Assembly: GCF_009914755.1 (NCBI RefSeq)
Contig: NC_060932.1
DNA: 64,000 nucleotides
Reading direction: 5' to 3' (one strand)
From: the human T2T-CHM13v2.0 reference genome, Homo sapiens
In this document: positions 1,101-6,397 of the stretch, one piece after another
How the letters are laid out: each line of letters starts with the position of its first letter
Position numbering within the stretch: position 1 is the first letter of the stretch
Translations under genes and position numbers: made by a program
Notes under the pieces: model-generated
Seen by the model: the letters and a program-made list of their open reading frames with translations, nothing else
What the model was told of the DNA's origin: nothing
The model's database searches: none

Positions 1101-1904
1101 GAGGGATACACCTTAAAAATTCATGGCGGCTTCATGATGAGGAAAGAGGGATGGGAGACTGTCTACGATGTTCATATATAAAAATCAAGACCTGATCCCA
1201 CACGCACTTGCCTATACTCTTGTCGGATTGTCTTTCACAAATTGCACAGAGGATTGATGGGTTGCCAGCAGGGGACCACTTGGTAGGTTTTAATGTACAG
1301 AGGCTGCAGGAGTGGGAGTAGGGAATAATCTTGTCAGGCTCCTACAAGCCAAAGCCTTCTGGAAGGATATTCTGAGGCTGCAGATTTTTGGCATTTAACA
1401 GCAGCTCAGGAGTAAGTTTAAGAATAATCAGTGAGGGGATGTTAATAGTAGCAGTCTAAAATTAGCCACTGAGAAGCCAAAGAATCAAAGAATTGTTGTA
1501 AGCTATGTTCAAAGGTAAAAACTAATTTGTTTCTTTTCCTTGTCTCCCCATAAGGAATTTACATGAAACTTAATGGCTTTGTGATTACATGAAGGTCTTT
1601 GCTTTCCTTCAGGCTGCATTTTTTTAGTGCTTTCTTACTAGGTAATTTTTCTCATTTGGTGAATAAAATTTATGTGTTGTAGGACTTTTTAATGTGTAAG
1701 TACCAAATCCTGAAACACTGATTTAAATGTTCTGAGATTCTGGAAGTCTAGAATAGTGAGAGATTTTTGAGTAGAAATGGCTTTATTTGTATTATGCAGC
1801 ATGGAATTGCCTAATGGCAAACATCAGAAACCTCGGCCTCTATACTGGCTTCTCTTCTGCCTCACACCACACGCCATTTCCTTTTATTTATTTATTTATT
1901 TTTT

Positions 1905-2168
1905 AATGCTCAATATTTTATTTGTATTGTTGTTTTCTATATAGATATGATAGGGCTTCATGATTTTTTGTTTTCCTTGAACTGATTCCCAAAGTATTAG
2001 CCTCATGAATCATGTATTCACAAGAAACACACTCATTGTATTCTCTTTGCTGTATAATTTTGGTTTCGGTTTTCCTTACATTTCCTATTCAAGGAACATT
2101 TTCCTGTAAAACGACATGTTGAGAGAAGCAGCCATAATTTAGTAGAGAATAGCGCGAGAGCTATTCTA
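1905..2168 (-). other. L1 3'-transduced non-L1 sequence
   Basis: Lies between the L1's own A-tail (T10 at 2169-2178) and a second A-rich tail (1888-1904), inside the TSD pair GCCATTTCCTTTTAT (1873-1887, 5071-5085); minus-strand AATAAA at 1917-1922, 12 nt before the second tail. Confidence 0.85.
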
Positions 2169-5070
2169 TTTTTTTTTTAAATTTGATTATTATTATACTT
2201 TAAGTTTTAGGGTACATGTGCACATTGTGCAGGTTAGTTACATATGTATACATGCGCCATGTTGGTGTGCTGCACCCATTAACTCGTCATTTAGCATTAG
2301 GTATATCTCCTAAAGCTATCCCTCCCCCCTGCCCCCACCCCGCAACAGTCCCTGGAGTGTGATGTTCCCCTACCTGTGTCCATGTGTTCTCATTGTTCAA
2401 TTCCCACCTATGAGTGAGAACATGCGGTGTTTGTTTTTTTGTCCTTGGTGATAGTTTGCTGGGAATGATGGTTTCCAGTTTCATCCATGTCCCTGCAAAG
2501 GACATGAACTCATCATTTTTTATGGCTGCATAGTATTCCATGGTGAACATGTGCCACATTTTCTTAATTCAGTCTATCGTTGTTGGACATTTAGGTTGGT
2601 TCCAAGTCTTGCTATTGTGAATAGTGCCGCAATAAACATACGTGTGCATGTGTCTTTATAGCAGCATGATTTATAGTCCTTTGGGTATATACCCAGTAAT
2701 GGAATGGCTGGGTCAAATCATATTTCTAGTTCTAGATCCCTGAGGAATCACCACACTGACTTCCACAATGGTTGAACTAGTTTACAGTCCCACCAACAGT
2801 GTAAAATTGTTCCTATTTCTCCACATCTTCTCCAGCACCTGTTGTTTCCTGACTTTTTAATGATTGCCATTCTAACTGGTGTGAGATGGTATCTCATTGT
2901 GGTTTTGATTTGCATTTCTCTGATGGCCAGTGATGATGAGCATTTTTTCATGTGTCTTTTGGCTGCATAAATGTCTTCTTTTGAGAAGTGTCTGTTCATA
3001 TCCTTTGCCCACTTTTTGATGGGGTTGTTTTTTTCTTGTAAATTTGTTTGAGTTCATTGTAGATTCTGGATATTAGCCCTTTGTCAGATGAGTAGGTTGC
3101 GAAAATTTTCTCCCATTTTGTAGGTTGCCTGTTCACTCTGATGGTAGTTTCTTTTCCTGTGCAGAAGCTCTTTAGTTTAATTAGATCCCATTTGTCAATT
3201 TTGGCTTTTGTTGCCATTGCTTTTGGTATTTTAGACATGAAGTCCTTGCCCATGCCTATGTCCTGAATGGTATTGCCTAGGTTTTCTTCTAGGGTTTTTA
3301 TGGTTTTAGGTCTAACATTTAAGTCTTTAATCCATCTTGAATTAATTTTTGTATAAGGTGTAAGGAAGGGATCCAGTTTCAGCTTTCTACATATGGCTAG
3401 CCAGTTTTCCCAGCACCATTTATTAAATAAGGAATCCTTTCCCCATTGCTTGTTTTTTCTCAGGTTTGTCAAAGATCAGATGGTTGTAGATATGCGGCAT
3501 TATTTCTGAGGGCTCTGTTGTGTTCCATTGATCTATATCTCTGTTTTGGTACCAGTACCATGCTGTTTTGGTTACTGTAGCCTTGTAGTATAGTTTGAAG
3601 TCAGGTAGCGTGATGCCTCCAGCTTTGTTCTTTTGGCTTAGGATTGACTTGGCGATGTGGGCTCTTTTTTGGTTCCATATGAACTTTAAAGTAGTTTTTT
3701 TCCAATTCTGTGAAGAAAGTCATTGGTAGCTTGATGGGGAGGGCACTGAATCTATAAATTACCTTGGGCAGTATGGCCATTTTCACGATATTGATTCTTC
3801 CTACCCACGAGCATGGAATGTTCTTCCATTTGTTTGTATCCTCTTTTATTTCATTGAGCAGTGGTTTGTAGTTCTCCTTGAAGAGGTCCTTCACATCCCT
3901 TGTAAGTTGGATTCCTAGGTATTTTATTCTCTTTGAAGCAATTGTGAATGGGAGTTCACTCATGATTTGGCTCTCTGTTTGTCTGTTATTGGTGTATAAG
4001 AATGTTGGTGATTTTTGTACATTGATTTTGTATCCTGAGACTTTGCTGAAGTTGCTTATCAGCTTAAGGAGATTTTGGGCTGAGACAATGGGGTTTTCTA
4101 GATATATAATCATGTCATCTGCAAACATGGACAATTTGACTTCCTCTTTTCCTAATTGAATACCCTTTATTTCCTTCTCCTGCCTAATTGCCCTGGCCAG
4201 AACTTCCAACACTATGTTGAATAGGAGTGGTGAGAGAGGGCATCCTTTCTTGTGCCAGTTTTCAGAGGGAATGCTTCCAGTTTTTGCCCATTCAGTATGA
4301 TATTGGCTGTGGGTTTGTCATAGATAGCTCTTATTATTTTGAGATACGTCCCATCAATACCTAATTTATTGAGAGTTTTTAGCATGAAGGGTTGTTGAAT
4401 TTTGTCAAAGGCCTTTTCTGCATCTATTGAGATAATCATGTGGTTTTTGTCTTTGGTTCTGTTTACATGCTGGATTACATTTACTGATTTGCATATATTG
4501 AACCAGCCTTGCATCCCAGGGATGAAGCCCACTTGATCATGGTGGATAAGCTTTTTGATGTGCTGCTGGATTCCATTTGCCAGTATTTTATTGAGGATTT
4601 TTGCATCAATGTTCATCAAGGATATTGGTCTAAAATTCTCTTTTTTGGTTGTGTCTCTGCCAGGCTTTGGTATCACAAGATGATGCTGGCCTCATAAAAT
4701 GAGTTAGGGAGGATTCCCTCTTTTTCTATTGATTGGAATGGTTTCAGAAGGAATGGTACCAGCTCCTCCTTGTACCTCTAGTAGAATTCGGCTGTGAATC
4801 CGTCTGGTCCTGGACTCTTTTTGTTGGTAAGCTATTGATTATTGCCACAATTTCAGAGCCTGTTATTGGTCTATTCAGAGATTCAACTTCTTCCTGGTTT
4901 AGTCTTGGGAGGGTGTATGTGTTGAGGAATTTATCCATTTCTTCTAGATTTTCTAGTTTATTTGCGTAGAGGTGTTTGTAGTATTCTCTGATGGTAGTTT
5001 GTATTTCTGTGGGATCGGTGGTGATATCCCCTTTATCATTTTTTATTGTGTCTGTTTGATTCTTCTCTCT
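2169..5070 (-). mobile_element. 5'-truncated young primate LINE-1 (L1PA3/PA4-like), ORF2 3' part plus 3'UTR
   Basis: ORF2 peptides in the ORF track ([25 protein letters not shown] motif, C-terminal HCWWDC); 3'UTR 'cacattgtgcaggttagttacatatg...cccattaactcgtcatttagc'; 15-bp TSD. Confidence 0.95.
2460..5070 (-). pseudogene. Frameshifted L1 ORF2 (RT and C-terminal domains; endonuclease domain absent)
   Basis: ORF2 split over several frames (4744-5070, 4212-4676, 3601-4212, 2996-3472, 2748-2999, 2287-2559); lower boundary approximate. Confidence 0.85.
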
Positions 5071-6397
5071 GCCATTTCCTTTTATAACATAACATGGGTT
5101 GGGGCAGAATTTAGGGCAACCGATGAAGAGAGTTTTGTACAGGATGTTGCCAATCTGTAAAATCTCTGACAATGTCCTTCTCCAAGTGAGGCTGAAAATG
5201 TGGTTCTGAGGCATCATGAAATCATTCTAACATACGTAAACTGGTCTCCTCTTTTTCTACACTGCCCCAGGCCTCAAGGGCTTACGATGATAGGTGGCCA
5301 GATTTGTCTAATTTTCTGTTTCTGCACTTTGGATTTAGTATAGCTTTCTATTGCTCGCTCTGAAACTTGAGGCAAATGATTTAATTTTTGTACTCTTTAT
5401 GTAAGACACAGATAATGCTGCCCCTTCATTACAGTACAATCAGTAGAATAAAATTAGTTAGCATACAGACATTCTTTGAATGTTACAAGGTTACACAATA
5501 AAAGAGAATTATTTAATCTCTCAGACATGTAAAATGGTCTGGAGTGTTTCAACCAGGCAGTCCTTGAATGCATCTGGGGTTTCTTTGTTATAACAGGGAT
5601 TCTTACTGAATCCTTGATACAATTCTTATTGATACACTTTGATCATTCTAATAAAAAGACAGTACCAACATGCTTCTACTTTACAAATTTATATACTGGG
5701 AAAAAAGCATATGCAAGTCTTTTGGCTGTCATTTTATAAATAGAATAGCAGTAAAATCTCACAACAGAGATCCAGCTACCATTAGCACAGTGTCTGTGAT
5801 TTCATATACTCTAATGAGCTGGGGAGAGAGAATACCTACTGTGACGTACAAAACTTAGGAATTAGGAGAAAAGGATTTTGATGGAAAGGGATGAGGAACT
5901 ATGTCCTTCTTGAGATTAATCCTAAACCCCTGATATGGTTTGTCATGAAAACCATTTAAAGTCTTTACTCAAAACTGCTAAAAAATAACATTTTATTCTG
6001 GTGGAATTCTTTGGTCCTGCATTAATCAGTATCTGTGGAAAAAGCAAACCCTCCTCTCAATCTAATGCTGCAGCAGATCACATAGGCTGATTCTGGGGCC
6101 CTTTCAGAAGTTCCAGGAAAAGAGGAGGGGTGAGCTTAGCTGGAAATAGCAAAGAGGCCCCTGTGTGACTCTAAGGGCATCATTAAAAAGGAATGTTCAA
6201 TCTCTGCAATCCCTGATTTTAAAACTACCACCACTGTGTGAATTGAAAGGCAGAGAGACATAACACTGAGGAGGCAAAAGACAGAAGACAGTATCTGAAA
6301 AAGGATTTTAAAAAGAAAATGTCTTTGTATAGAATTTTCCCCTTCATTGATCTCTGGCTCTGTTTTTTCCAAGGTTACATCTTACCCATCTCCTTAC

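What the first reader, a model, noticed from the sequence alone, without database searches (positions are those of the whole stretch)
1873..5085. L1 3' transduction: ~265 bp of foreign DNA carried inside the target-site duplication
Seen: an identical 15-mer GCCATTTCCTTTTAT flanks the insertion at 1873-1887 and 5071-5085, but the L1 ends at ~2169. On the L1 strand the order is truncated ORF2, 3'UTR, A10, 264 bp of non-L1 sequence, AATAAA, 12 nt, second A-rich tail, TSD. Established: L1 transcripts that read through the weak L1 poly(A) signal mobilise downstream flank (3' transduction). Inference: 1905-2168 is a barcode of the donor L1 locus and would be mistaken for native unique DNA by repeat masking; it may define a family of sibling insertions.
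Basis: partly seen in the sequence, partly recalled or inferred. Interest (0 to 1): 0.8.

Follow-up and report, generated by a model that had tools for sequence, protein, structure and literature searches.

The report
L1 insertion carrying IDO1 upstream DNA
An old, truncated L1 retrotransposon in a CPA6 intron brought along 265 bases copied from just upstream of the IDO1 gene, an ordinary kind of event except that the cargo looks like IDO1's interferon-response module and the donor L1 is no longer at the source.

Summary
An exact 15-mer (1873-1887, 5071-5085) brackets one insertion. On the minus strand it reads: 5'-truncated L1 (5070-2179, broken ORF2 with RVT_1), A10, 264-265 nt of non-L1 DNA, AATAAA, 12 nt, a 17-nt A-rich tail.

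The non-L1 piece has exactly one other copy in the T2T genome, at chr8:40,189,442-40,189,709. It is 95.5% identical over aligned bases and has one 4-bp indel. It lies 1,052-1,319 bp upstream of the IDO1 start codon. That copy has no A-tail and no flanking repeat, so it is the native source.

Homology stops exactly at the L1 A10 and 12-13 nt past AATAAA. The window copy was therefore made from a polyadenylated RNA.

No L1 adjoins the source, and none more than 72% identical lies within 20-30 kb. No sibling insertions exist. The source junction is not an L1-endonuclease-like site.

Best reading (about 0.75): a partnered L1 3' transduction roughly 11-23 My old, from a donor L1 that was never fixed. 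This copy's own L1 poly(A) hexamer reads AATCAA, unique in the genome, against AATAAA in the family.

The cargo holds IDO1's distal ISRE-like motif and three GAS-like motifs, all still intact. The mechanism is known. Interest is modest.

The parts
5071..5085 (.). Target-site duplication, copy at the L1 5' end (L1 sense: ATAAAAGGAAATGGC)
   Evidence: Exact 15-mer, 2 of 2 matches in the window, 0.02 expected; family D16. The empty-site hexamer TTATAA has 1 mismatch to TTAAAA; 1.2% of window hexamers have 1 mismatch or fewer.
2179..5070 (-). 5'-truncated L1 (2,892 nt): ORF2 from upstream of the RT domain through the 3' UTR, degenerate
   Evidence: RVT_1 hits E 6.5e-22 and 1.5e-17. The frame is broken into at least 8 fragments. 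It is 94.8-95.3% identical over 0.9-1.5 kb to 4 family copies (L004, L008, L010, L012).
2183..2188 (-). The L1's own poly(A) hexamer position, here AATCAA instead of the family's AATAAA
   Evidence: 488 genome matches to the 26-mer 3' end at 1 mismatch or fewer. Of the 100 listed, 98 read AATAAA, 1 reads AATGAA and 1 is this copy. The exact C-variant 22-mer matches 1 of 1 place, this one.
2169..2178 (-). A10 between the L1 3' UTR and the carried segment (taken to be the donor L1's genomic A-tail)
   Evidence: Direct reading. Homology to the source begins at the next base.
1905..2168 (-). Carried (transduced) segment, a copy of chr8:40,189,442-40,189,709, which is -1319..-1052 from the IDO1 ATG
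   Evidence: One other genome copy (halves). Alignment A1: 12 substitutions in 265 aligned columns plus one 4-bp indel, with sharp ends. IDO1 exon 1 was identified 1,052 nt from the segment.
2062..2075 (-). ISRE/IRF-E-like motif in the carried segment (window GGTTTCGGTTTTCC; source GGTTTCAGTTTTCC)
   Evidence: The core AAANNGAAAC matches at window 2063-2072. In L002 it matches only at 1663-1672 and 2678-2687. The consensus is recalled.
1973..2109 (.). Three GAS-like motifs: TTCCTTGAA 1973-1981, TTCAAGGAA 2088-2096, TTCCTGTAA 2101-2109
   Evidence: Direct reading. The first two correspond to 2 of the 3 TTCNNNGAA matches in L002. All three are identical in both copies in A1.
1917..1922 (-). AATAAA poly(A) signal of the carried segment, native to the source locus
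   Evidence: Present in both copies. Homology ends 12-13 nt downstream. The source continues with a GT/T-rich stretch (TGTGGTTATTTTT) and no A-tail.
1888..1904 (-). Terminal A-rich tail AAAAAATAAATAAATAA (the first A is shared with the source)
   Evidence: Direct reading.
1873..1887 (.). Target-site duplication, copy after the tail

Best explanation
This is a partnered L1 3' transduction. A full-length L1 once lay antisense to IDO1, about 1.05 kb upstream of its start codon. Its A-tail abutted the base that is now chr8:40,189,709 in T2T-CHM13.

A transcript from that L1 was not cleaved at the L1's own poly(A) signal. It ran 265 nt into the flank and was cleaved 12-13 nt after a native AATAAA, which is followed by a GT/T-rich element.

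The L1 proteins copied that RNA in cis by target-primed reverse transcription, at a TT|ATAAAA-type nick in what is now a CPA6 intron. Reverse transcription stopped within ORF2, which left 2.9 kb of L1. A 15-bp (13-15 bp) target-site duplication formed around the whole unit.

The event is roughly 11-23 My old. The donor L1 allele was never fixed, or was lost, so the source locus today is an empty site.

What is shown: the anatomy, the single source locus, RNA-mediated copying with polyadenylation at that site, the endonuclease-type target, and the absence of any L1 at the source. What is inferred: that the RNA began in an L1 sitting at the source.
For: (1) A single exact 15-bp TSD encloses the L1 plus the segment. 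No repeat brackets the L1 alone.

(2) The order L1 3'UTR, A10, unique DNA, AATAAA, 12 nt, A-tail was read directly.

(3) The segment has one other copy genome-wide. Homology starts at the base after A10 and ends at the cleavage point. The other copy lacks an A-tail, so it is the parent.

(4) The insertion-site hexamer TTATAA has 1 mismatch to TTAAAA. The background frequency of 1 mismatch or fewer is 1.2%.

(5) The L1's own hexamer is AATCAA here, against AATAAA in 98 of the 100 listed family ends. The C variant is unique in the genome, 1 of 1. If the donor carried it, read-through would have been obligatory.

(6) The L1 part and the carried part look equally old. The L1 is 94.8-95.3% identical to 4 family copies. 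The segment is 95.5% identical to its source, K2P 0.047.

(7) Background from passages of PMC13009371. About 25% of L1 insertions carry 3' transductions. A signal lay 10-30 bp upstream of 274 of 349 transduction ends. Truncated reference L1s that carry a transduction whose source is absent from the reference are described there as 'proxy elements'.

By recall: cis-preference makes L1 read-through RNA a far likelier template than a random intergenic RNA.
Against: No L1 adjoins the source segment. The right flank is unique IDO1 promoter DNA. The best L1-versus-L002 match has E 0.097.

Across chr8:40,169,442-40,219,709, 50 kb in five 10-kb loci, the only L1 matches are 68.5-72% identical fragments.

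The putative donor insertion site, TC|TAGA, has 3 of 6 mismatches to TT|AAAA. That is no better than 30% of random hexamers in the locus, so nothing marks it as a former L1 site.

No sibling insertion exists that would show the same junction independently.

The AATCAA change could equally be a later mutation.

The structure alone cannot exclude a second retro-copy landing in the L1's A-tail, or a template switch.
Confidence: 0.75

Rival explanations
1. Two-step nesting. The L1 inserted first, with the 15-bp TSD. Later a separate, 5'-truncated retro-copy of a polyadenylated minus-strand transcript from the IDO1 upstream region was inserted by L1 machinery into the L1's A-tail, in the same orientation. 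Its own TSD would then be made of A's and would be invisible.
For: It needs no vanished donor L1, which fits the clean empty source and the non-endonuclease-like source junction. A-tracts lie on both sides of the segment: A10 upstream and a 17-nt A-rich tail downstream. The source has a good-looking poly(A) site of its own. By recall, A-tails are preferred L1 endonuclease targets.
Against: It requires a rare trans-mobilised intergenic RNA to hit this exact 10-30-nt tail in the same orientation. No other retro-copy of that RNA exists. The L1 and the segment show the same divergence, so there is no sign of two ages. The unique loss of the L1's AATAAA would be coincidence.
Confidence: 0.1
2. Template-switch chimera. 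Reverse transcription started on the poly(A) tail of a short cellular RNA from the IDO1 upstream region. It reached that RNA's 5' end at TAGAATAGC and then jumped to the poly(A) tail of an L1 RNA. This would be a bipartite retro-copy of the kind described for U6-L1 and related chimeras (recalled: Buzdin and colleagues).
For: The structure is bipartite, with one TSD and one terminal tail. The source junction shows no endonuclease site. An 8-bp-stem hairpin sits at the very 5' end of the segment (-9.3 kcal/mol, z -2.2, 5 of 200 shuffles fold as well). It could mark an RNA end.
Against: It requires initiation on a non-L1 RNA in trans, followed by a switch precisely onto an L1 tail. By recall, known chimeras mostly have small nuclear or other RNAs as the 5' part, not a polyadenylated L1. 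I have no evidence of a 265-nt RNA with that 5' end. The hairpin is fully copied, so it did not stop the enzyme.
Confidence: 0.07
3. Spliced or long-range read-through. An L1 further upstream on the minus strand, within or beyond IDO1, was transcribed into the region. The RNA was spliced from just after the L1 tail to an acceptor near the segment's start.
For: AG dinucleotides lie near the junction in the source: ttacAG is 2 nt upstream of it, and tcTAG is at it.
Against: The junction does not coincide with the first acceptor, because the 2 nt 'TC' are missing. Using the second acceptor would need a 3-nt chance match. No L1 more than 72% identical lies in the 30 kb upstream in the minus sense. 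No extant L1 shares the AATCAA end.
Confidence: 0.03

Closest known systems
L1 3' transduction, 'partnered' type (recalled: Moran 1999, Goodier 2000, Pickeral 2000; passages read in PMC13009371)
   Same: The L1 3' end with its own A-tract is followed by unique flank that ends 12-13 nt after an AATAAA, then a second A-tail. All of it lies inside one TSD at an endonuclease-type target. The unique part maps to a single other locus.
   Different: The donor L1 is not at the source locus in this genome. The source junction is not endonuclease-like. There are no siblings. The cargo is a gene's regulatory module rather than anonymous flank.
'Proxy elements' of PMC13009371: truncated reference L1s that carry a transduction whose source L1 is absent from the reference
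   Same: A truncated L1 plus a transduced tag, with no source L1 in the assembly.
   Different: In those cases the source is a living polymorphic L1HS still producing offspring. Here the event is about 11-23 My old and the donor is presumably extinct.
Chimeric retrogenes formed by template switching (recalled: Buzdin et al. 2002/2003)
   Same: Two RNA-derived parts, one TSD, one terminal poly(A).
   Different: The 5' part here is a polyadenylated L1 rather than a small RNA. The arrangement is exactly what read-through predicts.

Membership tests
L1 3' transduction (partnered) | The L1 3' UTR and its own A-tract are followed directly by non-L1 sequence | tested here: met
   ...AATCAAATTT-A10-TAGAATAGC... 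RVT_1 in the upstream ORF fragments. Family 3' end shared with 488 genome matches.
L1 3' transduction (partnered) | The extra sequence ends at a poly(A) signal followed by a second A-tail | tested here: met
   AATAAA at 1922-1917, 12 nt, then a 17-nt A-rich tail. Homology to the source stops at that point.
L1 3' transduction (partnered) | One target-site duplication encloses the L1 plus the extra sequence, at an L1-endonuclease-type site | tested here: met
   Exact 15-mer, 0.02 expected. No repeat brackets the L1 alone. Hexamer TTATAA has 1 mismatch.
L1 3' transduction (partnered) | The extra sequence is a copy of unique DNA from another locus, which lacks the A-tail | tested here: met
   One other copy at chr8:40,189,442-40,189,709, 95.5% identical, with no tail.
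L1 3' transduction (partnered) | Corroborating, not defining: at the source locus the sequence lies immediately 3' of an L1 | tested here: not met
   Unique IDO1 promoter DNA abuts the segment. No young L1 lies within 20-30 kb. Donors absent from an assembly are documented. The call therefore rests on structure only.
L1 3' transduction (partnered) | Corroborating: sibling insertions share the same tag | tested here: not met
   Only 2 of 2 matches (window and source) for the whole segment and for each half.
Nested independent retro-copy in an L1 tail | A second TSD of its own around the inner insert, and an intermediate state (L1 without insert) in some lineage | tested here: inconclusive
   A-tracts flank the segment on both sides, so an A-only TSD cannot be seen or excluded. 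Orthologues are not available.
Template-switch chimeric retrogene | The junction corresponds to the 3' end of one RNA and an internal or 5' point of another, with no genomic locus where the two are contiguous | not testable with these tools
   No extant locus has them contiguous. A lost donor allele predicts the same. Transcript-start data are not held.
IDO1 distal interferon-gamma response module (ISRE plus GAS) | Lies within 1.3 kb upstream of the IDO1 ATG and carries ISRE and GAS sequences | tested here: met
   The source is -1319..-1052 from the ATG. It holds 1 of the 2 AAANNGAAAC matches and 2 of the 3 TTCNNNGAA matches of L002. PMC3181322 passages place two ISRE and three GAS within 1300 bp of the ATG. 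The exact published coordinates are in a figure I could not see.
IDO1 distal interferon-gamma response module (ISRE plus GAS) | Binds STAT1/IRF1 and confers interferon-gamma induction (for the window copy) | not testable with these tools
   Only motif retention is shown.

The most novel reading that the evidence does not exclude
A now-extinct L1 once sat between IDO1's distal and proximal interferon-response elements. Before it was lost, it exported the distal module to a CPA6 intron 28 Mb away. The module is one ISRE-like and three GAS-like motifs, all still intact after roughly 11-23 My. There it may still bind STAT1/IRF1 and act as an interferon-gamma-responsive element. That would be a natural case of enhancer shuffling by L1 3' transduction.
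Probability: 0.15. Interest if true: 0.55.

Novelty: new member of a known kind. Interest (0 to 1): 0.3.

Why it matters
As a mechanism this is textbook. L1 3' transduction has been known since 1999-2000 and affects a sizeable share of L1 insertions.

Three things make this copy slightly more than routine.

First, repeat masking leaves the 265-nt cargo looking like native unique DNA. It could mislead orthology, conservation or mapping analyses at both CPA6 and IDO1.

Second, the cargo is apparently the well-studied distal interferon-gamma response region of IDO1. That makes a concrete, testable example of regulatory-element duplication by retrotransposition.

Third, the tag records a donor L1 that once sat inside an important immune gene's promoter region and did not survive. 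This fits the idea that many active L1 progenitors are transient alleles.

Tried and rejected
(1) Sibling insertions. The whole segment and each half were searched against the T2T genome. Only the window and the source were found. The tool warns that very common words are skipped, but this sequence is unique.

(2) An extant donor. No L1 homology was found in L002. None was found in 10 kb on either side (L014, L018). Only 68.5-72% identical fragments were found further out (L015, L016, L017). No second L1 in the genome has the AATCAA end.

(3) An alternative TSD around the L1 alone. None was found among the 20 largest of 39 direct-repeat families.

(4) A splice-acceptor explanation of the junction. 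The AG is 2 nt off, so this was rejected as unlikely.

(5) The hairpin at the segment's 5' end as a reverse-transcriptase stop. The hairpin is fully copied, so it explains nothing.

(6) Exact published coordinates and sequences of the IDO1 ISRE and GAS. PMC1488823 is not held. A motif-string search of the papers found nothing relevant. PMC8061021 and PMC4586474 give counts only. Figure 1 of PMC3181322 is not held.

(7) Early transduction catalogues. Szak 2003 is not held, whether asked for by PMC id or by DOI, and was not found by title. I cannot say whether this copy is listed there.

(8) A search for papers linking IDO1, CPA6 and LINE-1 retrotransposition found none that mention CPA6: 0 of 10 listed, from 12 hits.

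(10) L1 subfamily naming was not attempted, because no reference consensus is held. Only divergence-based dating is given.
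Full report
**1. The observation**

The 15-mer GCCATTTCCTTTTAT occurs exactly twice in the window, at 1873-1887 and 5071-5085. It expected 0.02 matches, and 0 of 100 shuffles gave two.

Among the 20 largest of 39 direct-repeat families in 1800-5200, it is the only perfect one. No repeat brackets the L1 alone.

Read on the minus strand, the insertion has this order:
- A 5'-truncated L1 from 5070 to 2179, ending ...GTATAATAATAATCAAATTT.
- A10 at 2178-2169.
- Non-L1 sequence from 2168 to 1905.
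- AATAAA at 1922-1917, then 12 nt.
- The tail AAAAAATAAATAAATAA at 1904-1888.
- The second 15-mer.

The L1 part encodes broken ORF2. There are at least 8 stop-to-stop fragments on the minus strand. Two of them hit Pfam RVT_1 at E 6.5e-22 and 1.5e-17.

**2. Where the extra 264-265 nt come from**

The T2T genome that holds the window can be searched. The segment has exactly one other copy, at chr8:40,189,442-40,189,709, on the same strand. Each half, searched alone, finds the same two places and nothing else.

In the alignment, homology begins at the first base after the L1's A10 (TAGAATAGC...). It ends at GAGCATTA, 12-13 nt after AATAAA.

Beyond that point the window has its A-tail. The other locus continues with GAAAATATGTGGTTATTTTT, which has no A-tail and is GT/T-rich, as expected downstream of a real cleavage site. 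The other locus is therefore the native parent. The window copy was made from an RNA polyadenylated at that site.

The two copies differ by 12 substitutions (7 transitions, 5 transversions) in 265 aligned columns, plus one 4-bp indel. K2P is 0.047. With recalled primate rates of 1.0-2.2e-9 per site per year, the copying happened about 11-23 My ago.

The L1 part is 94.8-95.3% identical over 0.9-1.5 kb to four copies of its own family. The L1 and its cargo therefore look equally old.

**3. What the source locus is**

In L002, bases 2820-2906 translate to 29 residues. These match residues 1-29 of human indoleamine 2,3-dioxygenase 1 in solved structures (E 5.6e-15), and a GT donor follows them. 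The source segment is therefore -1319 to -1052 from the IDO1 start codon, on the strand antisense to IDO1.

Fifteen nucleotides beyond the cleavage point lie two tandem copies of a 24-mer (L002 1438-1485). This fits the 24-bp IDO1 promoter VNTR reported about 1.3 kb upstream of the ATG (PMC3181322, passages).

That paper also states that two ISRE and three GAS elements critical for interferon-gamma induction lie within 1300 bp of the ATG.

In L002 the ISRE core AAANNGAAAC (recalled consensus) matches only twice, at 1663-1672 inside the segment and at 2678-2687 near the promoter. TTCNNNGAA matches three times, two of them inside the segment. A TTCCTGTAA also lies in the segment.

A review (PMC4586474, passages) reports three results. 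Deleting one ISRE cut induction 50-fold. The other ISRE is at -111. The 748 bp between the two are dispensable. The 1,015-nt spacing I see fits this.

All four motifs are retained in the window copy at 2062-2075, 1973-1981, 2088-2096 and 2101-2109. The ISRE differs at one variable position, CG in the window against TG at IDO1. I could not see the published figure that gives exact element coordinates, so the identification is by position and motif only.

**4. Is there a donor L1?**

No. Where a donor should sit, immediately right of chr8:40,189,709 on the minus strand, there is unique IDO1 promoter DNA. The window L1 has no significant match in L002; the best E is 0.097.

Five 10-kb loci cover chr8:40,169,442-40,219,709. 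Two have no L1 match at all. The other three have only 68.5-72% identical fragments.

The putative donor insertion site TC|TAGA has 3 of 6 mismatches to the L1 endonuclease consensus TT|AAAA. In that locus, 30% of hexamers do as well or better.

By contrast, the window's own insertion site TT|ATAA has one mismatch, and only 1.2% of window hexamers do as well. The insertion in CPA6 is therefore classical target-primed reverse transcription.

**5. The L1's own poly(A) signal**

The 26-mer at the L1 3' end has 488 genome matches at one mismatch or fewer. Of the 100 listed, 98 read ...AATAATAAAATTT, with an intact AATAAA. One reads AATGAA. One is this copy, with AATCAA.

The exact C-variant 22-mer occurs once in the genome, here. 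If the donor carried this change, every transcript would have had to use a downstream signal. It could also be a later mutation. I count it as weak support.

**6. Weighing the explanations**

Every structural criterion of a partnered 3' transduction is met:
- The L1 tail is followed by unique flank.
- A signal and a second tail follow the flank.
- One TSD encloses the whole unit.
- The target is endonuclease-type.
- There is a single parent locus.

Only the corroborating features fail. There is no donor at the parent locus and there are no siblings.

Donors absent from an assembly are documented for young L1s ('proxy elements', PMC13009371 passages). For an event this old, a donor allele that never fixed is what population genetics leads one to expect (inference). 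An L1 inside the IDO1 regulatory region may also have been selected against (speculation).

The rival readings are below.
- A second retro-copy nested in the L1 tail (0.10). Its A-only TSD would be invisible.
- A template-switch chimera (0.07).
- Spliced read-through from a distant L1 (0.03). The acceptor is 2 nt off and there is no candidate L1.

Both main rivals need a rare trans-mobilised intergenic RNA of which no other retro-copy exists. I put 3' transduction at 0.75.

**7. Comparison, novelty, verdict**

This works like, and is best filed as, an L1 3' transduction, with the stated caveat that the donor is unobservable. The kind is well known. About 25% of insertions carry such tags.

I found no paper linking IDO1, CPA6 and L1. 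I could not open the early catalogues, so this copy may be listed there.

The identity of the cargo, IDO1's distal interferon-response module with its motifs intact in a CPA6 intron, is a modestly interesting and testable side result. I score interest at 0.3.

Noticed in passing
window 1973-2109; L002 1573-1712: The carried segment contains IDO1's distal ISRE-like motif and three GAS-like motifs. All four are retained in the CPA6-intron copy. They may make an interferon-responsive element at a new place.
   Followed up: partly
L002 1438-1485 (chr8:40,189,379-40,189,426): There are two tandem copies of a 24-mer, 15 nt beyond the cleavage point. This fits the two-repeat allele of the IDO1 promoter VNTR described in PMC3181322. 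The unit lies outside the copied RNA, so its copy number at the time of the event is unknown.
   Followed up: partly
window 2144-2167 (minus strand); alignment A1 columns 34-57: An 8-bp-stem hairpin (AGAATAGC / GCTATTCT, 6-nt loop) lies at the very 5' end of the carried segment, present in both copies. Folded energy is -9.3 kcal/mol, z -2.2. Its meaning is unknown.
   Followed up: partly
alignment A1 columns 89 and 133 (window 2112 and 2068): At both CpG-context differences the window copy keeps CG while the IDO1 locus has CA or TG. This suggests that the IDO1 distal ISRE lost a CpG after the copy was made. There is no outgroup to polarise the change.
   Followed up: no
window 1873-5085: The L1 and CPA6 are both on the minus strand. 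The intron therefore carries a sense-oriented L1 followed by a functional-looking AATAAA site from the IDO1 locus. This is a possible premature polyadenylation site.
   Followed up: no
L002 1003-1300: An Alu-like element in antisense orientation (T-run followed by GAGACGGAGTCTCACTCTG...) lies about 200 nt beyond the source segment. It is ordinary.
   Followed up: no
window 39136-39145: The same 10-mer ISRE core (AAACCGAAAC) as in the carried segment occurs once more in the window. In total there were 7 core matches against 4.7 expected, so this is probably chance.
   Followed up: no
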